A stretch of 64,000 bases of DNA from an uncultured Methanosarcinaceae archaeon (GCA_963727895.1 CAVSHT010000008.1:1-64000); one strand, 5' to 3'. Positions 5,180 to 33,235 are shown, numbered from the stretch's first letter. Notes: a model not told the origin generated them from the sequence alone. Translations and numbers: made by a program.

Positions 5180-6036
5180 GGTTCCGTTGCAAAAAATCTT
5201 AGAATAAGCCTGTAAATCTATGAATAATGAATAAAAGTTAAAATATTCAAAAAGATATGTCAATATTATAGAACTATTCCAAATAATTGATTAATATATT
5301 TAGCTTCATTAAAGCCAGAGTAATTTAAGTTCTTGATTTGTCCTTTTTTAATCATATTCATAGCTTCAATTCCTTTTAAAGTTTTAATGGCTGTATGAAA
5401 AGACTGAAATCCTAACATTGGATTAACTATTCGTTTAATGGATCTATGATCCTGTTCTATAATGTTATTCAAATATTTGATTTGTCGAATGCCTACGTTT
5501 ATAGGTAGTATTTTATCATTTTTCAGTTTATCTATAGCAGGTGGATAAGCTGGATTTTTGTCAACTGTGATTACTCTTGGAATTTGATTATGATTAGAGT
5601 TCAAAGCTTTCTTAAAGAAACGTTTTGCTGCTTTTTTATTTCGTTTTGCACTTAACATGAAATCAATTGTATCTCCATTTGAGTCAACTGCTCGGTAAAA
5701 ATATTTCCATTCACCTTTAACTCTGATATAAGTTTCATCAACTCTCCAAGAGTCGTTTGTTGGTCTTAAATGCCTTCTGACCTTCTTTTCGATTTCAGGT
5801 GAATATTGATGTACCCATCTCATAATGGTTGTATGGTTGACTATTATCCCTCTTTCTGCCATCATTTCCTTTAAATTTCTATAACTAAGTGGGTATTTTA
5901 AGTACCATCTAACATTCAATAAAATAATTTCACCAACAAAGTGCTTCCATTTAAAGGAATTAGATAGCATATCACTATCTTTGATTTCATTTTTATTTTA
6001 ATTATATCCTTAGCAGATATTTTTTGCAACGGAACC
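5180..6036 (-). mobile_element. IS6-family element copy 1 (857 bp), transposase 5266..5970
   Basis: TIR GGTTCCGTTGCAAAAAA at both ends; 234-aa DDE transposase (WRVDETYI, ITVDK, NNIIEQDHR); no target-site duplication (TSD). Confidence 0.97.
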
Positions 6037-8283: not shown

Positions 8284-9140
8284 GGTTCCGTTGCAAAAAA
8301 TATCTGCTAAGGATATAATTAAAATAAAAATGAAATCAAAGATAGTGATATGCTATCTAATTCCTTTAAATGGAAGCACTTTGTAGGTGAAATTATTTTA
8401 TTGAATGTTAGATGGTACTTAAAATACCCACTTAGTTATAGAAATTTAAAGGAAATGATGGCAGAAAGAGGGATAATAGTCAACCATACAACCATTATGA
8501 GATGGGTACATCAATATTCACCTGAAATCGAAAAGAAGGTCAGAAGGCATTTAAGACCAACAAACGACTCTTGGAGAGTTGATGAAACTTATATCAGAGT
8601 TAAAGGTGAATGGAAATATTTTTACCGAGCAGTTGACTCAAATGGAGATACAATTGATTTCATGTTAAGTGCAAAACGAAATAAAAAAGCAGCAAAACGT
8701 TTCTTTAAGAAAGCTTTGAACTCTAATCATAATCAAATTCCAAGAGTAATCACAGTTGACAAAAATCCAGCTTATCCACCTGCTATAGATAAACTGAAAA
8801 ATGATAAAATACTACCTATAAACGTAGGCATTCGACAAATCAAATATTTGAATAACATTATAGAACAGGATCATAGATCCATTAAACGAATAGTTAATCC
8901 AATGTTAGGATTTCAGTCTTTTCATACAGCCATTAAAACTTTAAAAGGAATTGAAGCTATGAATATGATTAAAAAAGGACAAATCAAGAACTTAAATTAC
9001 TCTGGCTTTAATGAAGCTAAATATATTAATCAATTATTTGGAATAGTTCTATAATATTGACATATCTTTTTGAATATTTTAACTTTTATTCATTATTCAT
9101 AGATTTACAGGCTTATTCTAAGATTTTTTGCAACGGAACC
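8284..9140 (+). mobile_element. IS6-family element copy 2, transposase 8350..9054
   Basis: Same TIRs and transposase as copy 1; no TSD. Confidence 0.97.
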
Positions 9141-11644: not shown

Positions 11645-12579
11645 TTAAGTCTTCTCGATGGCAAGAGGCTTGATCTCAGTACCAGGAACTATGGATTCTT
11701 CAGGTCTTCCGAACCAGGGAAGAGAGGCAAGTGCACCTATTACTCCGTTGCCGTCAAGCATGATTTCCACGCCGTTTTCTCTGGCGCATTGCAAAGCCTC
11801 GGATTTCAAGATTCTTTCAGTCCGACAGCGATTGCTGTAATTACATAACCCTTTTGCATAGAAATCCGAAAGAACCACCATTCCGGTTTCGGGCTGAAGC
11901 AGTGTATTTCTTAAGCGCTTTTTTGAAAGCATCTACCAGCCTTGATTTCGCTTTCTCATCCACACAACCGAATTCAAGTAACTGTAGACATGCAGTTCTG
12001 GGTCTTTTCCGGAACAGGGAAAAGCTGGACAAGAGAATGTGAGAGATAAACAGCTTCATGACAGTCCAGTTCCCTTGCAATATTATGAGTAAGAGTCCAG
12101 GTGGCACCTATTTCTTTTGAGTCAGTATCATCTATACCTATAAGGACACGGTCTCTGCGAGGAACTACAAGTTTTCCCCTTGCGCATTTTTCGCCCCCGG
12201 ATTGAGATATATCATAGCGAAGAACTCCATCTGCAAACGCTCTGCAACGAGTTGCGCCCACGCCTCCGCCTCCTAATCCAGCATAGGTGATTTCTACTTC
12301 ATCTCCCTGTACTATTACAGATTCAATACCTGCAGCTGCAATCGAAGGTTTGAGTTCGAGCTTTGAAGTTCCGATTTTCATGAAATAACGGATCATATTT
12401 CCTGTCGAACGGACTTTCAGGACAAGAGGAGCTTTTGCATAATGATAAAGGGACCAACAGGCCCCGCTATAACAATTAGAGTGTTCAATTATCTCTGCAT
12501 ACTCATTTGCTGCATCACAGATAGCATAAATGCCTTTATAAGGCACAGTATAAGGATCTTCCAGGATTACTTCCTTAAT
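11645..12579 (-). pseudogene. mmp11: Methanogenesis marker protein 11, split over three frames
   Basis: PYKGIYA...IIEHSNC, YAGLGGGGVGA, IGIDDTD..GATW, GVIGALASL across ORFs 11974..12546, 11841..12107 and 11645..11932. Confidence 0.8.
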
Positions 12580-12971
12580 ACCCCTGCTGTCCAGTACACA
12601 GGCGTTTATATGTTTTGTAATTCAGAAAACCTCCTTTTTAAGAGAATAATAAACTGGGAGGGAAATTTATTTAATCGAAATGCTCACCGTTTATAGATAT
12701 ATATAGATATCGTAATTATAGCAGTTCGATAGATAAAATCCAATAATACGGATGGCCGAATGACAGATTTTGTGTAAACAACATAGTCTTGGTATTTGAC
12801 TTATACCTATGAGAACCGACATCCACAGGTTCTAATTTTATAAATCATTCGCGCTCATGTGAGGTAACCTTTATAAAACAACTATTTATCTTTTTATCGG
12901 TAGGTTTGCTGACTTCTTTTTACGGAAATTTGAAGGAGACCTTGAAACCTAATTTGATTCACTGAAAAAGC

Positions 12972-13550
12972 TTAATCACTATGACTTTTTTTCAGTATCC
13001 ATGCCATATTTTGGCCAAGATTTTTCATATTGTCAATGCCTTCTTGATCCTGTTCTACTTCTCCGATAGCATTCCCGTAAGCCATATTCCAGTAACTTGA
13101 CCCTACCAGAAACATTTCCTTGCTATGTAAAAAATTGTTCAGGGTATTAAAGGCACTTATAGCACCGCCCCGACGAGCAGCAACAACTGAAGCTCCGACT
13201 TTATATTTGAAAAGCCCTCTATTTCCTGCAAGTACCATGCTTGCTCTGTCAATTAAGGCTTTCATTTAAGAAGTCACACCAGCTGAATATACTGGAGACC
13301 CAAGAATAATTCCGTCTGAAGCTACCATTTTTGCAAAACATTCATTAAAAAAATCATCTGTAATAATACATTGCTTATTTTTGTTTTTATGGCAAGTCCA
13401 GCAAGCTTTACATCCTTCTACTTTTTTACCAGATAGTTGAATAAGTTCGGTTTCAATGCCCTCTTTTTCTAGTTCCTCAAATACGGTTTGAATCAGAATT
13501 GCAGTATTGCCGTCTTTTCGTGGGCTTCCATTAATACCTATAACTTTCAT
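12972..13550 (-). pseudogene. Iron-sulfur flavoprotein (Isf/flavodoxin family) with an internal ochre stop
   Basis: GSPRKDGNT, CxxCxxC(5x)C, LGSPVY; in-frame TAA at 13266-13268 then MKALIDR...RRGG. Confidence 0.9.
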
Positions 13551-13773
13551 GTTCTTCAACTACTTTTTCGTATTTCTCAAGATGTTATTTTTACCTGTTA
13601 TTTTATTCTGATTTCCAATTACGGTAAGTTACTATAAGCGACTACTGAAAGTTTTTATGTTAAACTTCTATTGTGAACATCAAATTTTTCAATATTAAGA
13701 GTCTCTAAATTGAGTTTTTCTATATTGAGAGTTCTTAAATTGAGAATTTCTATTTTAAAGTCATAAAGTCATA

Positions 13774-14118
13774 TTATCTTACAAAGCCTTCATCTTTAAG
13801 GCTCACATATCTGCCTTCCCCGATAATAATATGGTCAAGGACGTCAATTCCAAGGAGTTTTCCTCCTTCTACCATTTTCTCAGTGACCATTATATATTCT
13901 CGGCTAGGACTTGGGTCTCCAGAAGGATGGTTATGAACCATGATTACTGATGCCGATGACTCCATAAGAGCGGACTTGAAAACTTCACGTGGATGAACAA
14001 TACTCGCATTCAAGCTACCGATAGATACGACTTCCTCTTCAATGATCTGGTTTTTTGTATCAAGGCAAAGCGTTATAAATTTTTCTTTTTTTGTTCGCGC
14101 ATTTTATGATACATTAAT
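13774..14118 (-). pseudogene. radC: 3' half of radC (JAB domain), interrupted
   Basis: LMYHKMREQK/FITLCLDTKNQII..VSIGSLNASIVHPREVF..HNHPSGD..LDHIII; no 5' half upstream; frameshift in an A-run at ~14090. Confidence 0.9.
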
Positions 14119-14149
14119 GTCTAATTTATATTTATTGGCAATACATCGG

Positions 14150-14965
14150 TTTTTCATAAGAGTTGTGAGGTCATGGATGTTTTCGTACAAGGATCTTTTT
14201 GAAGATGAAACCAAGGCTTCAAATTTGCCCGCCAAGCCCAAAACTTTGAAGGCTAAGGCAAATCATTAACCATCTTTTCTGAACCTGTTAGCACCTTATA
14301 TAGAAAGATAGCCTGTGCTCTCCCAAAAATAGTGTGGAAAAAAAGGAGTGAATGTTGGGGAAATTCCTAGAAACCCCAACGCTCAGAGAGTGCCGCAAGA
14401 AACCGGCGTTCATCAGGAGGAGGTGTGCGCAGAAAATCCAAAAACTCACACACCTCGTTTTGCTAGATACTTAAAGAGGTATAATAGGTATTATGCCATA
14501 CTATCTATAAATATTTATATATAAACATTCGCAGACTCTATACTATTTCGGCAAACCTCTCTAGACTGGCTGGTGGATTTGTCCCCGTGCCTTGCACGTA
14601 TATCTAAATATAAAGAGAGAAACAAAAAAACCAACTATTAAGGCTCGCTGATGGTTTTTAGGTAAAGTCTTGATTTCTTAACAGTCTCACGACCAACCAT
14701 AAGGTCTTTTACAACTCTTTTGAAAAATCTCCTTAAAAATCCAACCCTTCCACCGCTAGCGAAAACAATAATCTTGTCGCCGGCAATCTCCTTCCGGCGA
14801 CAAGAATGAAGTGCTATTATACTTTTGTTTAACTAATAAAAGTCAAAAAAGCGTTTTTGTTTGTCTGTCTGCTTGCTGTCTCTCGCACGTAACTAGTTAA
14901 TTATAAGGAAAAAGGGAAATTTTTCGTTTTTCAAGAGGGGGAGACTTTAGGAAGTTGTCTACCTC
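14150..14965. other. Highly structured non-coding region (candidate large ncRNA or origin)
   Basis: Long-range IR 14150-14166/14711-14727 (16/17) with further nested complementary blocks; local hairpins at 14222-14265, 14354-14380, 14420-14456 and 14772-14805. Confidence 0.5.
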
Positions 14966-15014
14966 ATTTTGTATGTTTTTGTGTTTTGTCTGTTTTGTCT
15001 GCCTTACTTGATTT

Positions 15015-15626
15015 TCATTCAAAATCAATACGGCAATCGTAGGGGTCCATAAAACGCACTCTCACACGCTCCCCCGTTCGGATTCCATACTGCTCCTCAA
15101 CAGGTGTGCAGGCATTGAAGCATTTAAATGATTTACCGTTAATGGTTTTTGTTACATACCCTCCGCCTGTAACCATTTGTATGAAAGAGTAGACAGTTTC
15201 TTCATCTATTGAAAATGGATCTAACTTATGGTTTCCCATTCTTTTAAATAGTATAGGTCGATTCTTTTTCTCTCCCCATTCATGTGCACAAAAAAGTTGG
15301 TTTTCTATGTTGTCTACACAAAACACAATCCTATAAGCTGCTTTGATAACACCTATGGCTGTTGCGTCCTGTTTTTCGTTTTCGTTGAGTTCATGTCCCT
15401 GCCCATCACATATGTCTAAGTACTTCTCATACTCGGCGTCTGCTATTGCAACATTTATCTCCTCTTTGAGGATCCTGTTATACTCTGATTCCTTCAAACC
15501 ATATGCTTTAATTATCTTTTTTAAGTTTTCTTTCCTGCTAAGATCTATGCGTGAAAATTCGGGAAACTCTTTTTTAATCTCCTCATACGACCTCAAATCC
15601 CAGTTGAATTGTCTCATTTCCTTCAC
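15015..15626 (-). CDS. Hypothetical protein (~200 aa), last gene of the element operon
   Basis: Clean ORF with globular composition and AAGGTGAAGGA RBS-like sequence; no family recognised. Confidence 0.8.
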   Translation of the reverse strand: MKEMRQFNWDLRSYEEIKKEFPEFSRIDLSRKENLKKIIKAYGLKESEYNRILKEEINVAIADAEYEKYLDICDGQGHELNENEKQDATAIGVIKAAYRIVFCVDNIENQLFCAHEWGEKKNRPILFKRMGNHKLDPFSIDEETVYSFIQMVTGGGYVTKTINGKSFKCFNACTPVEEQYGIRTGERVRVRFMDPYDCRIDFE

Positions 15627-15651
15627 CTTACAATATTCTATGACGTGTAGT

Positions 15652-15912
15652 TTAGGCTCTAATTTCAGCGTTCTTTGTTGTCCTGAGCAACTTACCCTTC
15701 ATTTTTCTAACTTCGGCTATTTTTCTTCCTTTCTCCCTCATGGCTTCACTTGCTTCACTTGGGTCTTTTCCAAGCCTAAACGCCCACAAAACACATTTTG
15801 AATCTTTTGCCCAAGGTCCAGCTGCACAGTGCTCTACATCAGAATAAGAGTTTGAGCAACAGTTTAAACAGTGTTTTCGAATAGTTTGAAGTAATTCAAA
15901 TTTGGTTGTCAT
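15652..15912 (-). CDS. Small Cys-rich Zn-finger-like protein of phage/mobile-element type
   Basis: IRKHCLNCC...VEHC...CVLWAFRLGKDP pattern; ATG 15912 follows GGAGG and sits 1 nt after the upstream stop. Confidence 0.75.
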   Translation of the reverse strand: MTTKFELLQTIRKHCLNCCSNSYSDVEHCAAGPWAKDSKCVLWAFRLGKDPSEASEAMREKGRKIAEVRKMKGKLLRTTKNAEIRA

Positions 15913-15913
15913 C

Positions 15914-16075
15914 TTAAATATCCTCCACAATTTTTGTTAAATGAATCGAATGCCTTGTTTTCGTTACCTGAAGAGTATCTCCTTCGTGCCAATTCATGTC
16001 GTCAAGGATTGCTTTTTCCAATGGAAGCTTGTGATCCTCACTACACTCATTTTTTTCAATCATTACTACATACAT
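15914..16075 (-). CDS. AbrB/MazE/SpoVT-like micro-protein (53 aa)
   Basis: Hand translation MYVVMIEKNECSEDHKLPLEKAILDDMNWHEGDTLQVTKTRHSIHLTKIVEDI; LP...W.EGD.L pattern; GGGTGA RBS. Confidence 0.7.
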   Translation of the reverse strand: MYVVMIEKNECSEDHKLPLEKAILDDMNWHEGDTLQVTKTRHSIHLTKIVEDI

Positions 16076-16079
16076 TTTA

Positions 16080-16244
16080 TCACCCTACAAATTTTGATAT
16101 TATAAGTGAATTACATTCTAATTTTATTGTGAGTTGTGTCTCATGTGTAATGTTCAATTTTTTAGTCATTCGTGAGGGTAACATTAGACTCATAGTACCT
16201 ATTGAGTTCGCTTTAACAGCATTTTTCACGACTAAATCTTGCAT
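16080..16244 (-). CDS. AbrB/MazE/SpoVT-like micro-protein (54 aa)
   Basis: Hand translation MQDLVVKNAVKANSIGTMSLMLPSRMTKKLNITHETQLTIKLECNSLIISKFVG; TTTATATA box ~25 nt upstream. Confidence 0.7.
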   Translation of the reverse strand: MQDLVVKNAVKANSIGTMSLMLPSRMTKKLNITHETQLTIKLECNSLIISKFVG

Positions 16245-16542
16245 ATGATCACTCAAAAATTTTTATTTATATATAAATATGTTTATATGAGTATATAAAT
16301 CTAATTGATAAATAAATAGAGTTACCGCTAACGATTCCTGTAACCTGCTGAAAAATATATGAATAAAATTTCGTTTTTTAAGTGCAACCGCGCCCGTAGC
16401 AGAAAAACAATAATTCCATAGGAACTCACGAAGATAATAAGATACACAATAATATCAATTGTTAAATGTATATATATTTATATATTTATCTATTTATATA
16501 TAACGTATGAACTATATATCTTGCAAAAGCAACATTTTGTAT

Positions 16543-16640
16543 AAAGTGTTTCCATTTAAAGGAATTAGATAACATGTCACGATCTTTGAGTTCCTTTTTA
16601 TTTTATTATATTCCTAGCAGATATTTTTTGCAACGGAACC
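16543..16640 (-). mobile_element. Diverged IS6 left-end remnant
   Basis: TIR ending at 16640 plus the first codons of the transposase, with several substitutions relative to the intact copies. Confidence 0.85.
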
Positions 16641-17716
16641 GTTTCTTCTATGATAAACCTCTTTGTTGTGAAATTTTTCAGGAAATTTTCATATGATAAA
16701 ACCGTTTCTTTCTTAACCGATGAAGAGGCTATCCTACTCTCTTTTTTTGATGAAAATGATCAGATCAAACTTCCTTCAGGTGGAACTCTTCATCATTTTA
16801 TGAAGTATAGGTTTGGAGAGGAAGGAATCAATGAAATAATTATGCTTTCAGGTGAGAAAATTCTCAAACTTTCTGTGGAAAAGGAAGCTAAGATCGATTC
16901 CACTCCACTTGAAGCTTCAAGATACGATAAACATGCTGATTACGATCCTCATTATGAATACAAAATGGATAAGGCACATATTACAATGGTTGGAACTCAC
17001 CCTGTTTTTATGACTCATACAAAAGGAGTTGCTGGTGACTCTTCCAAACTTATCAACCATATTAAAGCTCTAAAAAATATGAATGCTAATCTCAAATTGT
17101 ATTCTGCAGATGGAGGCTATGATTCATTCCTTAATCATTCTAACATTTGGTATCACCTAGCTGCAAAACCGATCATCTCCTACGCTTCAAATGCCGTAAT
17201 CAATCAAGAAGGTGAAGAGGAAAGAATCAATCACTGGGTAAATAAAAAATGGAAAATCGGTGGCGATGTTCATGCACCAATGGAAAACAAACTCAAATTT
17301 CTCTATGAGATTGGAAGAAAAGAACAGGTAGAAATGTACCTGAGAAACCAGAAAAATCAAAGATGAGGCTTTTGATGACCAGTATAAAAAGAGAGCTGAA
17401 TGTGAAAAATACATGGACATATTAAGTGTACAGTAAAATTCGATATTAGAATAATCAGAAATCAGAGTAGAAAACTCTACTCTCTATTGAGTTTCATAGC
17501 ATATCATTTGTATTCGGTTAAGGAATTTTATACAAAATTTTGAATACCACATATAGTGATTTTCCAGCTTGAATGTTACGATTTCGGCATGAAAAATAGC
17601 ACTTTTTGATGTTTTTTTCCTTAACCGAATACAAATGCATGGCATATCAACTACTGGTGTTGACAGAAATACAAAATAAAATTGGAAATCAGAATTCATT
17701 CGGGATATATTTTTAA
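16641..17716 (+). pseudogene. Methanosarcina DDE transposase (ISNCY, ISMac19-like from memory); 5'-truncated, frameshifted and MITE-interrupted
   Basis: KIDSTPLEASRY, SADGGYDS; frameshift at ~17352; C-terminus LLVLTEIQNKIGNQNSFGIYF resumes after the MITE. Confidence 0.8.
17505..17637. mobile_element. MITE (133 bp), probably IS4/ISH8-group derived
   Basis: 21-bp perfect TIR CATTTGTATTCGGTTAAGGAA; 10-bp TSD CATAGCATAT/CATGGCATAT (1 mismatch). Confidence 0.9.
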
Positions 17717-17891
17717 AGAAGTGAGCATCAAACTAGATTAGGAATTTTAAAAGCTAATTTAAGATCCTTTAGTATCATAAACTCAAATAGCAATATTTAA
17801 GAGTAAGACTTGTATCATAATCAATAATATGATATTCAAATAGTCACTATCATCGAATTTAATTAATTTTTTAAACCGAATAAGTGATAAT

Positions 17892-18416
17892 ATGTCAGTG
17901 GTTCCTAAAGAAAACCTTTGCAGTTATTCTCACTGCTCTTCCAGATGAATACAATGAAGTTCGTAAACACTTAGTAAATGTGAAGAAAGAATCTGACATT
18001 TATGGAACTATCTATGAAAGAGGAGTATTTTCCTTTAAAGGTCAATCCATGGAAATTGTGATCGCTCAGATTGGCGAAGGCAGTGAACAGGCAGCTTTGG
18101 AAGGAGAAAGAGCAATTCGATATTTCAATCCAAGTATTATACTTTTTGTAGGAGTAGCTGGTGGAGTTAAAAATGATGTAAAACTTGGTGATGTGGTAGT
18201 TGCTAGTAAAGTTTATGGATATGAGTCGGGAAAAGCTGATAAAAGCTTTGAACCACGACCTCAACTAATGTTGCCGAATGCTAATATTTTAAATGAAGTA
18301 AGATCCCTAACTCGAAATGATGATTGGTTACAATATTTTGGTGATCAAGTTCCTAATCCATCTCCTAATGTATTTGTCAAACCTATTGCTACTGGTGGAA
18401 AAGTAGTAGGCTCATC
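17892..18416 (+). pseudogene. MTA/SAH nucleosidase (PNP_UDP_1) domain protein, 3'-truncated by IS6
   Basis: AVILTALPDEY, GTIYERG, LFVGVAGG..DVKLGDVVVA..VYGYESGK, IATGGKVV; the likely ATG at 17892 is out of frame with the domain. Confidence 0.85.
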
Positions 18417-19273
18417 GGTTCCGTTGCAAAAAATCTTAGAATAAGCCTGTAAATCTATGAATAATGAATAAAAGTTAAAATATTCAAAAAGATATGTCAA
18501 TATTATAGAACTATTCCAAATAATTGATTAATATATTTAGCTTCATTAAAGCCAGAGTAATTTAAGTTCTTGATTTGTCCTTTTTTAATCATATTCATCG
18601 CTTCAATTCCTTTTAAAGTTTTAATGGCTGTATGAAAAGACTGAAATCCTAACATTGGATTAACTATTCGTTTAATGGATCTATGATCCTGTTCTATAAT
18701 GTTATTCAAATATTTGATTTGTCGAATGCCTACGTTTATAGGTAGTATTTTATCATTTTTCAGTTTATCTATAGCAGGTGGATAAGCTGGATTTTTGTCA
18801 ACTGTGATTACTCTTGGAATTTGATTATGATTAGAGTTCAAAGCTTTTTTGAAGAATCTGTTCGCTGTTTTTTTATTTCGTTTTGCACTTAACATGAAAT
18901 CAATTGTATCTCCATTTGAGTCAACTGCTCGGTAAAAATATTTCCATTCACCTTTAACTCTGATATAAGTTTCATCAACTCTCCAAGAGTCGTTTGTTGG
19001 TCTTAAATGCCTTCTGACCTTCTTTTCGATTTCAGGTGAATATTGATGTACCCATCTCATAATGGTTGTATGGTTGACTATTATCCCTCTTTCTGCCATC
19101 ATTTCCTTTAAACTTCTATAACTAAGTGGGTATTTTAAGTACCATCTAACATTCAATAAAATAATTTCACCTACAAAGTGCTTCCATTTAAAGGAATTAG
19201 ATAGCATATCACTATCTTTGATTTCATTTTTATTTTAATTATATCCTTAGCAGATATTTTTTGCAACGGAACC
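18417..19273 (-). mobile_element. IS6-family element copy 3, transposase 18503..19207
   Basis: TIRs and intact transposase; no TSD. Confidence 0.97.
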
Positions 19274-22752: not shown

Positions 22753-23609
22753 GGTTCCGTTGCAAAAAATATCTGCTAAGGATATAATTAAAATAAAAAT
22801 GAAATCAAAGATAGTGATATGCTATCTAATTCCTTTAAATGGAAGCACTTTGTAGGTGAAATTATTTTATTGAATGTTAGATGGTACTTAAAATACCCAC
22901 TTAGTTATAGAAATTTAAAGGAAATGATGGCAGAAAGAGGGATAATAGTCAACCATACAACCATTATGAGATGGGTACATCAATATTCACCTGAAATCGA
23001 AAAGAAGGTCAGAAGGCATTTAAGACCAACAAACGACTCTTGGAGAGTTGATGAAACTTATATCAGAGTTAAAGGTGAATGGAAATATTTTTACCGAGCA
23101 GTTGACTCAAATGGAGATACAATTGATTTCATGTTAAGTGCAAAACGAAATAAAAAAACAGCGAACAGATTCTTCAAAAAAGCTTTGAACTCTAATCATA
23201 ATCAAATTCCAAGAGTAATCACAGTTGACAAAAATCCAGCTTATCCACCTGCTATAGATAAACTGAAAAATGATAAAATACTACCTATAAACGTAGGCAT
23301 TCGACAAATCAAATATTTGAATAACATTATAGAACAGGATCATAGATCCATTAAACGAATAGTTAATCCAATGTTAGGATTTCAGTCTTTTCATACAGCC
23401 ATTAAAACTTTAAAAGGAATTGAAGCGATGAATATGATTAAAAAAGGACAAATCAAGAACTTAAATTACTCTGGCTTTAATGAAGCTAAATATATTAATC
23501 AATTATTTGGAATAGTTCTATAATATTGACATATCTTTTTGAATATTTTAACTTTTATTCATTATTCATAGATTTACAGGCTTATTCTAAGATTTTTTGC
23601 AACGGAACC
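22753..23609 (+). mobile_element. IS6-family element copy 4, transposase 22819..23523
   Basis: TIRs and intact transposase; no TSD. Confidence 0.97.
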
Positions 23610-23670: not shown

Positions 23671-23797
23671 CATTTAAACCCTTGATAAATACTATCAAAG
23701 TTTCAATATTTGAATCTTCACAAAGCTTTAGATAAAATGTTAAGATGAATAAAAAAGCCGACCCTTACTTATACCGGAAAGTGCATAACGATCTTTA

Positions 23798-24655
23798 ATG
23801 AAAGTCATTTCAGTTGTTGGGTATAAAAAATCGGGTAAAACATCCGTAGTTTCAGCCCTTGTCCGAAATCTTTCAGGGTTTGGGACCGTAGGCACTATAA
23901 AACATATGGGTGAGCAGAGACTCAATCCAGAAGAGACCGATACAGGCAGGCATTTTGATGCTGGGGCTGACATGGTAATAGGAATAACAGGTACGGAAAC
24001 AACAGGTACTGAACTTGTCAGCTTTTCCAGAGACTTGAACCTTGAAGACGCTCTTGATATGCTTTGCGACCAGGGGTTTGATTTTGCTGTGGTTGAGGGA
24101 TTTAAGAAAAGCAATCTTCCAAAAATTGTAATTGGAGACCTTCTTGGCGTTTCAAACATCATTTTCAGGATACCGGTAGATATTGACATGCATGAGGAAC
24201 TTACAGCTTCTCTTGTAGGAGTAGCCCTCGCCCAGCCTGACCGGTACACTCTGGAAGCCCTTGTAAAGAAAGCCAGAAAAAATCCTATAATCAGAAAAGC
24301 AGGTGCAATTGGCACTTTTACTGGCATAGTCCGTGAGCTTGATGGAGAAGAGAAAACTTCCAGGCTTGAATTTGAAAAATACGAACCAGAAGCTTCAAAA
24401 GTTCTTGACCAGATCCGAGAAGAACTCAAACGAAAAGAAGGCATCCTTGAAGTCCTGATCCACCACAAAACAGGCGTGATCAAAACCGGAGAAGACATAG
24501 TATACATCGTTATCGCAGCCGCTCACAGGACAGAGCTTTTCCCTGTCTTAAGCGAAGCAATAGAACGCATAAAAGCCGAAGCTCCAATCTGGAAGAAGGA
24601 ATTCACGGAAAAAGAAGAATTTTGGGTCCACGATAGGGAACATCCTGAAAATTAA
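23798..24655 (+). CDS. moaE: MobB-MoaE fusion (molybdopterin synthase large subunit with MobB domain)
   Basis: N-terminal VVGYKKSGKT P-loop and VEGFK; C-terminal GAIGTFTGIVR..IK.EAPIWKKE. Confidence 0.93.
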   Translation: MKVISVVGYKKSGKTSVVSALVRNLSGFGTVGTIKHMGEQRLNPEETDTGRHFDAGADMVIGITGTETTGTELVSFSRDLNLEDALDMLCDQGFDFAVVEGFKKSNLPKIVIGDLLGVSNIIFRIPVDIDMHEELTASLVGVALAQPDRYTLEALVKKARKNPIIRKAGAIGTFTGIVRELDGEEKTSRLEFEKYEPEASKVLDQIREELKRKEGILEVLIHHKTGVIKTGEDIVYIVIAAAHRTELFPVLSEAIERIKAEAPIWKKEFTEKEEFWVHDREHPEN

Positions 24656-31105: not shown

Positions 31106-32440
31106 ATGTCATTAGCAAAACTTAGAACACATTATACAGTCGATGTCAAGCCTGAAAAAGTTGACAACGGTCAGAAAATTACTTTGGCAGGCTGGGTCCA
31201 TGAGGTAAGAGACCTCGGAGGGATCTGTTTTGTAGTACTTCGAGATCGTGAAGGAAAAGCTCAGGTCACTCTTATAACTAAAAAAATTGATAAAGAGCTT
31301 TTTGATGCTGCAAGAAGGCTTATCCGTGAATCTGTAATCACAGTAACTGGCTCCGTTAAATTTGAAGAGAAAGCTCCAAACGGATACGAATTGCTTCCTG
31401 AAGAGATCACTGTCCTGAATATTGCAGATTCTCCATTGCCAATGGATACTACAGGTAAGGTGGAAGCTGAACTGGATACAAAGCTAGATTCACGATTTAT
31501 TGACCTCAGGCGGGCTGAGACTACTGCAGTTTTTAAAATAAGGCACCAGGCTCTCCAGGCGATCAGGGAATACTTTGTAGAAAACGGATTTATCGAAACC
31601 GCAACACCCAAGATCGTAGCGACTGCAACCGAGGGCGGTACCGCACTTTTCCCTATTACTTACTTTGACAGAGAAGCTTTTTTGAACCAGAGCCCTCAGC
31701 TCTTCAAGCAAATCCTTATGAGTGGCGGTTTTGACAGGGTTTTTGAGATAGGTCCTATTTTCAGGGCAGAAGAGCACGACACCCGCAGGCATTTGAATGA
31801 AGCTACTTCGATCGATGTTGAGGTAAGTTTTGCAGACCATTTCGATGTAATGGAGATTCTCGAAAACCTTGTGGCTTATGCCTACTCTCAGGTTATTGAA
31901 AAGTGTAAGTCTTCCCTTGAAACACTCGGAATTGAGCTAAAAGTTCCAAAAACTCCTTTCCTGAAGCTTACCTATGACGAAGTAATCGAGATAATAAACG
32001 CTCGTTCGGAAGAAAAAATGCATTGGGGAGATGATCTTGGTACTCTCGGAGAGCATATCGTGGGCAACTACGTATACGAGACAACAAGAGAATCTCATTA
32101 TTTTATCATCGATTGGCCAACTGAGATTAAACCTTTCTATGCCATGCCTTATGAAGACAGGCCGGAATTCAGCAAGTCCTTTGACATGATGCACCGAACA
32201 ATGGAACTCTCGTCTGGAGCTCAGCGTATTCATCTTCTTGATTTGCTTAAGAGCCGGATAGAATCACAGGGTCTGAACCCTGACGGGTTTGAGTTCTACC
32301 TTAAAGCTTTCGAATACGGAATGCCTCCACATGCAGGCTGGGGTATGGGTTGTGAACGTTTCATCATGACAATGCTTGGAACCGAAAACATAAGAGATAC
32401 CGTACTCTTCCCCAGGGATAGGAGAAGACTTTCTCCTTAA
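31106..32440 (+). CDS. aspS: Aspartate--tRNA(Asp/Asn) ligase, archaeal non-discriminating type
   Basis: [45 protein letters not shown]; start at ATG 31106 after GGTGA. Confidence 0.97.
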
Positions 32441-32530: not shown

Positions 32531-33235
32531 ATGACTGAAAGGAATACATCCACAGATTCTCCGGAAAAACGTGCATCTGGCATTGCTGCATCCCGACTGG
32601 TAGAATCAGGAATGGTAGTAGGGCTCGGAACGGGCTCAACTGTTGCATATACGATAAAAGAACTTGGCAGGCGGGTAAGAGAAGAAGGACTCGAAATACT
32701 CGGCGTTGTAACTTCATACCAGTCTGAAATGCTTGCCATAGAAGCTGGCATTCCTCTAGTAACTCTTGCCCAGTATCCTGAATTGGACATTGCTATTGAC
32801 GGAGCAGACCAGATTGATTCAAAGCTGTATGCAATCAAGGGTGGAGGAGCTGCACATACACGGGAAAAGATAGTATCATCATCAGCAAAACGTTTTTTGG
32901 TTGTAGCCGATGAATCAAAGATAAGTACCCAGCTTGATAAGGTCGTGCCGATCGAAGTTCTCCCCTTTGCAAAAACTCTTGTAATTAAAAGAATTGAGGA
33001 ACTGGGTGGAAAACCAGAATTGAGGTCTGCTCTGAAAAAAGACGGACCTGTAATTACTGACAATGGGAATTTCGTACTTGATGTAAACTTTGGAGTAATA
33101 AATGACCCTGAAAGCCTGGCTCTCCAATTATCTTCAATTCCTGGAGTAGTTGAACATGGAATTTTTTCCAATGTGGATGAACTCTATATAGGAAAAAAAG
33201 ACGGATCAGTGGAGATAGTCCTGAAGAATTCATGA
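32531..33235 (+). CDS. rpiA: Ribose-5-phosphate isomerase A
   Basis: GLGTGST, DGADQ, IKGGGAA..REK, TDNGN, PGVVEHG. Confidence 0.97.

What the first reader, a model, noticed from the sequence alone, without database searches (positions are those of the whole stretch)
13774..16300. radC-integrated element with an uncharacterised four-gene operon: AbrB-like, AbrB-like, Zn-finger, orphan
Seen: radC stops abruptly at ~14118. On the same strand lies a tightly packed operon with 4-, 1- and ~25-nt gaps, RBS-like motifs and a TATA box at ~16270. The first two genes (16080..16244, 15914..16075) are 53-54-aa proteins missed by the ORF track, both with a swapped-hairpin AbrB/MazE pattern. They are followed by a CxxCC..C..C protein and a 200-aa orphan. 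Established: radC is a recurrent integration target for genomic islands, and small AbrB-type regulators often head plasmid, virus and toxin-antitoxin operons. Inference: this is the core replication, maintenance or satellite module of an undescribed archaeal integrative element, with the orphan acting on the adjacent structured region.
Basis: partly seen in the sequence, partly recalled or inferred. Interest (0 to 1): 0.8.

Follow-up and report, generated by a model that had tools for sequence, protein, structure and literature searches.

The report
Decayed mobile element inside archaeal radC
A Methanosarcina DNA-repair gene (radC) was cut in two by a site-specific mobile element; this genome keeps only the element's last 2.4 kb, a small operon of two AbrB-like regulators, a zinc-finger protein and a rare protein of unknown fold.

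Summary
Only the 3' (JAB) half of radC is present (13774-14120), and it carries a frameshift. In 47 of 50 congeners with a radC match, the gene is an intact 229-aa ORF. One congener (G217) has radC split at the same point by a 31-kb element that carries a tyrosine integrase, a Prim-Pol, and an AbrB-like gene followed by an orphan homologue. The att cores match, and the 26 nt of element DNA next to the core are 81% identical between G217 and the window.

In the window only the attR-proximal 2.4 kb of the element survives (14121-16501). IS6-family insertions removed the integrase end, attL and the radC 5' half. Host homology resumes at 23674, beside mobB-moaE.

The four ORFs look real: tight spacing, Shine-Dalgarno-like motifs, TATA boxes, and a coding pattern of substitutions against a second decayed copy on contig C5. 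Both micro-ORFs fit an AbrB/MazE profile, but below curated cut-offs. The zinc-finger protein has four invariant cysteines, and its relatives lie in the early or replication regions of other mobile elements. The 200-aa protein belongs to a very rare family (28 clusters in 1.84 billion). Its model is confident, has no fold match, and is predicted to form a homodimer.

This is probably a regulatory, DNA-binding accessory module and not the replication core. Its function is not shown.

The parts
13774..14120 (-). radC 3' remnant. It corresponds to residues ~113-229 of the 229-aa congener protein (the JAB domain), has no 5' half, and is frameshifted.
   Evidence: PF04002 match with E 1.8e-41 and 8e-42. 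tblastn with intact G232 RadC matches residues 121-229 at 94%. Frames were read.
14086..14092 (-). A7 run where all four compared radC sequences have A8. The 1-nt deletion puts MYHKMREQKK out of frame with the JAB domain.
   Evidence: Alignment of the window with G232, G273 and G217. Translations.
14108..14120 (-). att core at the attR junction, ACATTAATGTATC. It contains the 10-bp palindrome ACATTAATGT.
   Evidence: Aligned with ACACTTATGTACC in intact G232 radC and with ACACTGATGTATC (attR) and ACACTGACATATT (attL) in G217. Palindrome I15.
14121..14146 (-). Element arm next to the core. It is conserved with the G217 element (21 of 26 nt identical).
   Evidence: In one search the DNA match to G217 runs to query position 1247 (window 14146), whereas other genomes stop at 1215-1224.
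14125..15014 (-). Non-coding 'tail' of about 0.9 kb between the orphan stop codon and attR. It contains CAGACAAA-type runs, a perfect 12-bp hairpin (14772-14805), and a conserved block (14204-14599) present in seven copies in this genome.
   Evidence: No Rfam match in 12500-18000. Found in this genome only among 59 genus genomes, apart from one 36-nt hit. RNAalifold covariation term +1.79.
15015..15617 (-). Orphan gene of 200 aa (P0001). Member of a rare family. Predicted to have a long helical hairpin followed by a helix-helix-beta-hairpin C-terminal part, and to form a homodimer.
15652..15912 (-). Zn-finger protein of 86 aa with four invariant cysteines (C15, C18, C29, C40).
   Evidence: Codon-position substitutions 11/6/28.
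15914..16075 (-). ORF2, an AbrB/MazE-like protein of 53 aa.
   Evidence: phrog_661 E 3.8e-5. TIGR01439 E 0.0015 and TIGR02609 E 0.0012, both below their cut-offs. Profile A4 against PDB.
16080..16244 (-). ORF1, an AbrB/MazE-like protein of 54 aa and the first gene of the operon.
   Evidence: hhalign against an AbrB-like profile built without ORF1: probability 81%, E 1.2e-5, 42 columns. Codon-position substitutions 17/8/30.
16257..16501 (-). Promoter and upstream region. TATA-like boxes lie at 16292-16299 and 16264-16277. Non-coding stretches are conserved with the C5 copy, including CGGGCGCGGTTGCACTTAAAAAACG.
16540..16644 (.). Terminal fragment of an IS6-family element. It marks where the surviving element DNA ends.
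   Evidence: About 90 copies of this ~100-nt end occur in the genome. Homology to the C5 copy ends at 16501.
22819..23523 (+). IS6-family transposase (PF13610) next to the point (23674) where homology to congeners resumes. That point lies 72 nt upstream of where radC would start.
23798..24655 (+). mobB-moaE, the conserved divergent neighbour of intact radC in congeners. It marks the far host flank.

Best explanation
Window 14121-16501 is the attR-proximal remnant of a tyrosine-integrase integrative element that inserted site-specifically in the middle of radC, at codons ~112-117 between the N-terminal half and the JAB domain.

Shown: the junction, the empty sites in congeners, and an occupied site with both radC halves, an integrase and a short imperfect direct repeat in G217.

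Later decay:
- IS6-family elements removed the integrase end, attL and the radC 5' half. The boundaries are shown; the mechanism is inferred.
- The radC remnant acquired a frameshift (shown).

The surviving operon is a transcription unit with TATA boxes and SD-like motifs. I infer the following roles:
- The two AbrB/MazE-like proteins act as dimeric DNA-binding (auto)regulators at the conserved upstream region.
- The four-cysteine protein is a small nucleic-acid-binding factor of a type common in the early or replication regions of prokaryotic mobile elements.
- The 200-aa protein is a symmetric homodimer, probably DNA-binding.

Together they would form an accessory regulatory or maintenance module that is exchanged between different integrase backbones. 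It is not the replication core.
For: Integration into radC:
- radC is intact at 229-231 aa in G232 and G273, with mobB-moaE as its divergent neighbour.
- 47 of the 50 genus genomes with a radC match have it full length (59 genomes searched).
- G217 holds residues 1-120 at C72:316-675 and residues 113-229 at 31672-32022. Between them lie an integrase (PF00589), a Prim-Pol (PF09250), a 533-aa protein that by my reading of its sequence has a Walker-A-like GSGKS motif (no Pfam family matched), and an AbrB-like gene followed by an orphan homologue.
- The att cores align, and 21 of 26 nt of the adjacent arm are shared by G217 and the window.
- At least seven genomes are closer to the window in the radC 3' DNA (88-90% identity against 84% for G217) and have intact radC. 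This points to independent hits or to excision.

Decay:
- No radC 5' half was found in the assembly at E <= 1 or E <= 10.
- Host homology resumes at 23674 beside an IS6 transposase.
- An IS6 end lies at 16540.
- The genome holds 51 near-full-length IS6 transposase matches.

Operon reality.

AbrB-like nature:
- Profile A4 hits PDB 7xi6 'C56' at E 2.6e-5. Four of the other five hits are MazE or PemI chains or 3o27, all with E about 1.
- The G225 homologue hits PF04014 at E 9.5e-4.
- ORF2 hits TIGR01439 at E 0.0015.
- ORF1 against profile A8: 81% probability, E 1.2e-5.

A module that moves between backbones:
- G268 has a 194-aa integrase, a 73-aa ORF, the Zn-finger protein and the orphan.
- G225 has a 224-aa integrase, an AbrB-like gene, a Cys-rich protein and the orphan.
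- Both lie away from radC, which is intact in both genomes.

Zn-finger context:
- 52 metagenome loci.
- An AbrB-like ORF lies directly upstream in 4 of them.
- Prim-Pol, AAA_25, VapE, AEP or DnaB helicase-primase genes, or integrases, lie nearby in 9 of the 17 loci whose neighbours were scanned (16 metagenome loci and one viral contig).

Orphan:
- Model pLDDT 87.6, pTM 0.80.
- Homodimer score 0.52 (median of three runs) against a best control of 0.01. That mark was reached by 20 of 30 proteins solved as pairs of one chain and by 1 of 23 proteins solved as single chains. The runs agree in at least 0% of their contacts, and the partner's pLDDT is at least 75.
Against: - No integrase, attL or replication gene is linked to the module in the window, so its origin from a G217-type element rests on the junction and a 26-nt arm.
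- The gene content next to attR differs. G217 has DUF3006 and an MBL-LTD gene where the window has a 0.9-kb non-coding tail, and G217 has no Zn-finger gene next to its orphan homologue.
- Every AbrB assignment is below the curated family cut-offs. Searched alone, neither ORF1 nor ORF2 hits any PDB chain at E <= 10.
- No DNA-binding domain was detected in the orphan by Pfam, PHROGs, NCBIfam, PADLOC or PDB sequence search.
- The winged-helix idea rests only on the order of secondary-structure elements.
- One of the three dimer runs scored 0.00.
- Expression is untested.
Confidence: 0.7

Rival explanations
1. The AbrB-like genes and the orphan form a toxin-antitoxin or abortive-infection type addiction or defence cassette carried at the end of the element. 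The AbrB/MazE-type protein would be the antitoxin and repressor, and the 150-200-aa protein the toxin or effector.
For: - ORF2 gives weak hits to TIGR02609 'addiction module antidote' (E 0.0012). ORF1 gives a weak hit to phrog_4681 'antitoxin' (E 0.12).
- The G225 AbrB-like protein hits PF04014 MazE_antitoxin (E 9.5e-4).
- In G217 the AbrB-like gene and the orphan homologue form a tight two-gene pair with a 16-nt gap.
- The orphan copy is broken in 2 of 5 loci while the AbrB-like gene stays open: a TAA stop in G225 and an IS cut in the C5 copy.
- The module sits with different integrases.
Against: - Neither the orphan nor five other proteins tested (the three other operon proteins counted separately) match any PADLOC model at E <= 0.1, apart from one weak HTH hit for ORF2 (8 proteins tested).
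- No known toxin family was found by Pfam, NCBIfam or PDB search.
- The orphan model is a helical-hairpin dimer with no recognisable catalytic fold.
- The Zn-finger gene lying between the AbrB-like genes and the orphan is atypical for type II toxin-antitoxin systems.
Confidence: 0.15
2. The operon and its 0.9-kb tail are the replication or packaging core of a small satellite-like element. The orphan would be an initiator or small-terminase-like DNA-recognition protein acting on the repeats and hairpins downstream.
For: - G268 and G225 show compact arrays of a short integrase, small regulators and the orphan, with no other recognisable replication gene nearby.
- The tail has short CAGACAAA-type runs, AT-rich stretches and a perfect 12-bp hairpin.
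- The orphan has an N-terminal helical part, a long helical hairpin and a beta-containing C-terminal part, and is predicted to self-associate.
- Two family members carry an inserted segment that looks HTH-like to me on reading it in the alignment.
Against: - In five of the seven tail copies no orphan gene lies upstream; the gene identified there is an HTH protein in three of them and a DDE transposase in one.
- G217 has the orphan without the tail, and carries its own Prim-Pol and P-loop protein elsewhere in the element.
- None of the 52 metagenome Zn-finger loci holds an orphan homologue.
- No initiator or terminase fold match was found.
Confidence: 0.1
3. The region is not an integration remnant. 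radC was simply truncated by IS6-mediated rearrangement, which placed unrelated mobile DNA next to it.
For: - The genome is riddled with IS6 copies: 83 transposase matches, 51 of them at least 200 aa.
- Neighbouring genes are also broken: FMN reductase by a TAA stop, and fragments of a phosphorylase-superfamily (PNP_UDP_1) gene and of an aminotransferase.
Against: - The break is at the same nucleotide core as the G217 integration, and the adjacent 26 nt of element DNA are 81% identical between the two.
- No IS end lies at 14121. The nearest one is at 16540.
Confidence: 0.05

Closest known systems
Small integrase and prim-pol integrative elements of Methanomicrobia and other archaea (Makarova et al. 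2014, PMC4158269; passages read)
   Same: The full G217 relative has a tyrosine integrase, a Prim-Pol, a P-loop protein, many ORFs of unknown family, and flanking direct repeats.
   Different: That paper states that tRNA genes are the most common targets of archaeal elements. Here the target is the middle of a protein-coding gene, which is inactivated. I did not test the AbrB-Zn-orphan operon against that paper's families, and its supplements were not read.
Tn554-family elements, which insert at att554 inside staphylococcal radC (bioRxiv 10.1101/2020.09.30.320143; passages read)
   Same: radC is the specific target, and a 3' radC remnant is left behind.
   Different: The host is bacterial. I recall Tn554 as having a three-gene transposition module (recalled, not checked). 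G217 has a single 402-aa integrase next to attL. Homology between the recombinases was not tested.
AbrB-like regulators of Sulfolobus plasmid-virus hybrids (pSSVx C68; recalled from Contursi et al. 2011, not read here) and MazE/PemI antitoxins
   Same: All are proteins of roughly 50-85 aa (PDB chains 56-85 residues) with the G-x-(I/V/L)-x-(I/L)-P...(L/M)-G/N...L signature. Profile A4 hits PDB 7xi6 'C56', 3o27, and the MazE/PemI chains 1ub4, 1mvf and 2mrn.
   Different: Only 7xi6 is significant (E 2.6e-5); the others have E about 1. The origins of 7xi6 and 3o27 were not checked in any call. The window has two tandem AbrB-like genes.
Small Cys4 proteins in early regions of phages and integrative elements (an unnamed family; no Pfam or PHROG model matched)
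   Same: The motif (K/R)xCLxCC...V..C...C.LW.(F/Y)R.G is shared by 51 ORFs in the 52 metagenome loci. They often lie next to primase-helicases or integrases.
   Different: The window protein belongs to a tight subgroup of 10 database proteins with 51-90% identity. The function of the wider family is unknown.

Membership tests
RadC (PF04002, JAB domain; full-length Methanosarcina RadC of 229 aa) | JAB domain match above the curated cut-off | tested here: met
   141-143 bits against a cut-off of 22.1.
RadC (PF04002, JAB domain; full-length Methanosarcina RadC of 229 aa) | Uninterrupted full-length ORF including the N-terminal half | tested here: not met
   Only residues 121-229 match in frame. 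The A7 frameshift is shown. No 5' half was found in the assembly.
Tyrosine-recombinase integrative element | Integrase gene inside the element | tested here: not met
   There is none between 14121 and 23674. The G217 integrase homologues in this genome lie on contigs C5 and C9. The feature is met in G217 (PF00589).
Tyrosine-recombinase integrative element | Target split, with a direct repeat (att core) at both ends | tested here: inconclusive
   The window has attR only. G217 has both halves, overlapping at residues 113-120, and the core ACACTGA..TAT at both ends.
Tyrosine-recombinase integrative element | Empty site in relatives | tested here: met
   47 of the 50 genomes with a match have full-length radC.
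SpoVT/AbrB-MazE swapped-hairpin superfamily (ORF1, ORF2) | Score above the curated cut-off of PF04014 or TIGR01439 | tested here: not met
   No Pfam hit at E <= 1 for ORF1 or ORF2. ORF2 scores 18.2 bits on TIGR01439 against a cut-off of 28.3.
SpoVT/AbrB-MazE swapped-hairpin superfamily (ORF1, ORF2) | Profile-level similarity to proteins of this fold | tested here: met
   Profile A4 hits 7xi6 at E 2.6e-5, and MazE/PemI chains and 3o27 at E about 1. ORF1 against A8 gives 81% probability, E 1.2e-5.
SpoVT/AbrB-MazE swapped-hairpin superfamily (ORF1, ORF2) | Swapped-hairpin dimer in a 3D model | not tested
Type II toxin-antitoxin system | Recognisable toxin partner next to the antitoxin | tested here: inconclusive
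   No toxin family was found for the Zn-finger protein or the orphan in Pfam, NCBIfam or PADLOC. A new toxin cannot be excluded.
Small terminase (TerS) | Fold or sequence match to a TerS | tested here: inconclusive
   No Pfam Terminase hit. No TerS appears among the rows listed. Only residues ~26-111 of the model were effectively tested.

The most novel reading that the evidence does not exclude
The AbrB-Zn-finger-orphan operon could be a self-contained, portable module that hops between unrelated integrase backbones in Methanosarcina. On this reading the 200-aa protein founds a new fold of dimeric effector. That effector would be either a DNA-recognition factor that acts on the multi-copy non-coding block (for element replication, packaging or hijacking), or a new toxin or defence effector held in check by the AbrB-like proteins. 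The element family itself would be the first archaeal mobile element known to target radC.
Probability: 0.15. Interest if true: 0.6.

Novelty: new variant of a known kind. Interest (0 to 1): 0.4.

Why it matters
- It documents site-specific integration into the middle of a protein-coding gene (radC) in a methanogen. Archaeal elements are usually described at tRNA genes (PMC4158269, passages read). Together with the staphylococcal Tn554 family, it shows that radC has been hit by mobile elements in both bacteria and archaea.
- It identifies a very rare protein family with a confident predicted structure and no detectable relative. The family is tied to mobile elements of one genus and is a clean target for structural and functional work.
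- For this particular window, the biology is that of a dead remnant in a genome overrun by IS6 elements. The immediate significance is therefore modest.

Tried and rejected
Searches and checks that gave nothing:
- Rfam on 12500-18000 at E <= 1: no match.
- tRNA scans of the window and of seven related loci: none, so there is no tRNA target.
- RNAalifold on six tail copies: covariation term +1.79. Only one hairpin (columns 228-263) has a pair with compensatory changes. There is no case for a structured RNA.
- Conserved ORFs in the tail: none seen on reading the frames; the copies differ by indels.
- ESM Atlas: no usable hit.
- tblastn of the orphan against 50,697 phage records: no match.
- The HNH-fused family member P0015 matched phages only through its HNH part. 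The apparent full-length hit, Cronobacter phage GAP52 gp070, gave hhalign probability 0.2% against A3 and was rejected.
- Foldseek against PDB (first model only) and against BFVD (second model): nothing at E <= 0.001.
- VIA-align wide search: best Z 5.1 and 5.5, on generic helical hairpins such as photosystem I subunit K (rmsd 1.6 over 53 residues). No small terminase, replication initiator or winged-helix protein appeared in the listed rows. The C-terminal part was barely tested.
- PADLOC: no defence family.
- A1 in viral contigs: none. A2 in viral contigs: one locus, beside DNA polymerase III and RecA genes.
- Sequencing runs: no RNA holder listed.
- An att-like pattern searched across the genome found no second radC-type site. 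The two hits were AT-rich look-alikes.

Ideas not pursued:
- Whether the short (193-224 aa) integrases of G268, G225 and L037 are halves of SSV-type split integrases was considered but not tested.
Full report
WHAT IS THERE

All features lie on the minus strand, in this order:
- A promoter region with TATA-like boxes at 16292-16299 and 16264-16277.
- ORF1, 16244-16080, 54 aa.
- A 4-nt gap.
- ORF2, 16075-15914, 53 aa.
- A 1-nt gap.
- A Cys-rich protein, 15912-15652, 86 aa from its ATG.
- The 200-aa 'orphan', 15617-15015.
- About 0.9 kb without a convincing ORF.
- A RadC JAB-domain reading frame, 14097-13774.

Each start codon has a Shine-Dalgarno-like motif upstream. None of the four proteins hits Pfam at E <= 1 in a meaningful way. 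The region has no Rfam family and no tRNA.

radC IS REALLY BROKEN, AND BY INTEGRATION

- The JAB match covers PF04002 positions 17-120 of 121.
- The N-terminal codons MYHKMREQKK are in another frame. The window has an A7 run (14086-14092) where G232, G273 and G217 have A8.
- In congeners radC is a 229-231-aa gene lying divergent to mobB-moaE.
- I searched the 59 genus genomes with the G232 protein. 50 had a match and 47 of those had it full length. G238 has a 1-149 piece. G217 has two separate halves. The window's genome has only residues 121-229.
- In G217 the halves (residues 1-120 and 113-229) lie 31 kb apart on one contig. The DNA between them encodes a 402-aa tyrosine integrase next to the 5' half, a 533-aa protein, a Prim-Pol, large secreted proteins and, about 3 kb from the 3' half, a 50-aa AbrB-like gene directly followed by a 170-aa homologue of the orphan.
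- The junctions align as follows:
  - intact site (G232): ACACTTATGTACC
  - G217 attL: ACACTGACATATT
  - G217 attR: ACACTGATGTATC
  - window: ACATTAATGTATC (14120-14108)
- The 26 nt of element DNA next to the core are 21/26 identical between G217 and the window.
- G217 is not the window's closest relative at this locus. It shows 84% DNA identity, against 88-90% for at least seven genomes that have intact radC. The two occupied sites therefore reflect site-specific integration, not one inherited accident.
- A genome contigs record titled Methanosarcina sp. Z-7115 carries the G217 orphan homologue at 99% identity on a contig of the same length. The genus is therefore Methanosarcina.

THE WINDOW HOLDS ONLY A REMNANT

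- Homology to a second copy of the module on contig C5 ends at 16501. At 16540 begins a ~100-nt IS6-family end that occurs about 90 times in the genome.
- Between 16540 and 23674 lie IS6 transposases (18503-19207 and 22819-23523) and gene fragments or genes of host-like families: a phosphorylase-superfamily fragment, a sulfatase-like gene, DUF3795 and an aminotransferase fragment.
- Homology to congeners resumes at 23674. That is 72 nt upstream of where radC would start, next to mobB-moaE at 23798-24655.
- No radC 5' half exists in the 19-contig assembly, which is 84% complete.
- The G217 integrase, P-loop and other element genes have their homologues on other contigs.
- The genome holds 83 IS6 transposase matches, 51 of them at least 200 aa. 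Neighbouring genes are also broken.

THE FOUR GENES

The C5 copy (C5:341213-342119) is 73% identical. Its ORF1 is frameshifted and its orphan is cut by an IS after about 20 codons. Substitutions between the two copies fall mostly on third codon positions in ORF1 (17/8/30) and in the Zn-finger gene (11/6/28). The signal is weak in ORF2 (21/21/28) and absent in the upstream DNA (25/20/26).

AbrB-like genes:
- A profile of seven small proteins from these loci hits PDB 7xi6 'C56' at E 2.6e-5. It also hits three MazE/PemI chains and 3o27 at E about 1, so five of the six hits look like this fold.
- ORF1, left out of the profile, matches it at 81% probability, E 1.2e-5.
- ORF2 hits TIGR01439 (AbrB family) at E 0.0015 and phrog_661 at E 3.8e-5.
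- All of these scores are below curated cut-offs. No 3D model was made for either ORF.

Zn-finger protein:
- The large protein collection holds only 10 relatives.
- Four cysteines are invariant.
- A metagenome scan gave 52 loci with more distant relatives.
- An AbrB-like ORF lies directly upstream in four of those loci, and none has an orphan homologue.
- In the longer loci the neighbours include Prim-Pol/AAA_25, Prim-Pol/DUF3987, VapE-like, AEP and DnaB proteins, integrases, a DNA methylase and a small terminase.

Orphan:
- The word-indexed collection holds one other protein, at 62% identity, on the same 1,454-bp contig as a 90%-identical Zn-finger protein.
- An exhaustive profile search found 28 representatives among 1.84 billion.
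- By genome, the family occurs in 4 of 59 genus genomes. In a phylum-wide sample of 401 genomes it was found only in two Methanosarcina genomes.
- One member is fused to NUMOD4 and HNH_3. No other Pfam family recurs.
- Many members end in an acidic, aromatic tail (read from the alignment).
- With 26 sequences the AlphaFold model reaches pLDDT 87.6 and pTM 0.80. It has short N-terminal helices, a long helical hairpin (44-68 and 79-110), then helices at 117-129 and 141-153 and a beta-hairpin at 154-167.
- No library gave a convincing fold match.
- A homodimer is supported by the model. The score is 0.52 (median of three runs) against a best control of 0.01. That mark was reached by 20 of 30 proteins solved as pairs of one chain and by 1 of 23 solved as single chains. 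The runs agree in at least 0% of their contacts, and the partner's pLDDT is at least 75. One run scored 0.00. The interface is symmetric, through the hairpin tip and residues 138-154.

THE MODULE TRAVELS

- In G268 the order is a 194-aa integrase, a 73-aa ORF, the Zn-finger protein and the orphan.
- In G225 the order is a 224-aa integrase, a 201-aa ORF on the other strand, an AbrB-like gene, a different Cys-rich protein, and an orphan with an in-frame TAA stop.
- Both lie away from radC, which is intact in both genomes.
- A metagenome locus has a 193-aa integrase directly followed by the Zn-finger gene.

THE 'STRUCTURED REGION'

- The 0.9 kb between the orphan and attR belongs to a family of seven copies in this genome: C8, C5, three on C4 and two on C3. 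It was not found in the other 58 genus genomes, apart from one 36-nt hit.
- In three of the C4/C3 copies the gene just upstream is an HTH protein of 72-103 aa that is truncated by IS6; in the C3:72120 copy it is a DDE transposase, and in the C4:82030 copy the upstream side is cut by IS6. In all five C4/C3 copies a 227-235-aa protein of no known family converges from downstream.
- The tail contains CAGACAAA-type runs, a perfect 12-bp hairpin (14772-14805) and a hairpin with one compensatory pair. RNAalifold gives no net covariation support.
- Its role is unknown. It could be a shared end region of an element family, an origin, or regulatory DNA.

READING

The integration story is well supported. 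Function is inferred. AbrB-type regulators probably control a small operon whose products are small DNA-binding or architectural proteins of a mobile-element accessory module.

Three rivals remain:
- a toxin-antitoxin or defence cassette;
- a replication or packaging core acting on the tail;
- a pure IS6 accident. The shared core and arm argue against this one.

LITERATURE

- Three full-text searches combining radC, Methanosarcina, integration site, provirus, integrase and related terms found no description of this element.
- Passages of bioRxiv 10.1101/2020.09.30.320143 state that the Tn554 family inserts at att554 within staphylococcal radC.
- Passages of PMC4158269 describe small prim-pol integrative elements in archaea and name tRNA genes as the usual targets. 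Its supplements were not read and might list related Methanosarcina islands.

Noticed in passing
G217 loci L026:1-20000 and L006:1-12100 (G217:C72:~680-31670): A complete ~31-kb element sits between the two radC halves. It carries a 402-aa integrase, a 533-aa P-loop-like protein, a Prim-Pol, a 1333-aa protein, large PKD-type secreted proteins each preceded by a small AbrB-like ORF, a DUF3006 gene and an MBL-LTD gene. It could be a provirus or an integrated plasmid.
   Followed up: partly
L019:7570-10120 (G000:C5:339570-342119): A second, decayed copy of the module lies next to genes I read as pdxS/pdxT (no family search run). ORF1 is frameshifted, ORF2 and the Zn-finger gene are open, and the orphan is cut by an IS after its N-terminus. 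The tail block is present.
   Followed up: yes
window 14204-14599, and G000 C4:4223-4586, C4:36421-36844, C4:81620-81914, C3:56409-56835, C3:71428-71853, C5:339586-339980: A seven-copy non-coding block specific to this genome. It has conserved TATA-like stretches and hairpins, and always lies in mobile-element debris. Its function is unknown.
   Followed up: partly
G000 C4:80701-81384, C4:4823-5530, C4:37081-37782, C3:70482-71189, C3:57071-57757: Five paralogues of a 227-235-aa protein with no Pfam match (only one was tested). Each converges on a copy of the non-coding block.
   Followed up: no
window 12972-13559: The NADPH-dependent FMN reductase gene is split into two 97-aa ORFs by a TAA stop where congeners have glutamine. 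It is a pseudogene.
   Followed up: yes
window 11645-12546: A TiaS-like gene (303 aa in G232) is broken into at least two ORFs here.
   Followed up: no
window 5266-5970, 8350-9054, 18503-19207, 22819-23523, 32531-33235: Five 234-aa ORFs of identical length; the two tested (18503-19207, 22819-23523) are IS6/IS240-family transposases. The whole genome has 83 tblastn matches, 51 of them at least 200 aa. This is a massive IS expansion.
   Followed up: partly
window 16650-17366: A single-copy 238-aa ORF with no family hit. By eye it looks like a fragment of a DDE transposase (recalled resemblance, not tested).
   Followed up: no
window 17884-18444: A fragment of a phosphorylase-superfamily (PNP_UDP_1) domain, cut off by the IS6 copy at 18503.
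   Followed up: no
window 16330-16480: Non-coding DNA upstream of the operon promoter is conserved with the C5 copy. It includes a GC-rich island (CGGGCGCGGTTGCACTTAAAAAACG) and a GTTAC...GTAAC inverted repeat. These are candidate operator sites.
   Followed up: no
L037:9396-10231 and L005:6258-8026: Short (193-194 aa) tyrosine recombinases lie directly upstream of Zn-finger genes. They may be C-terminal halves of integrases that split on integration.
   Followed up: no
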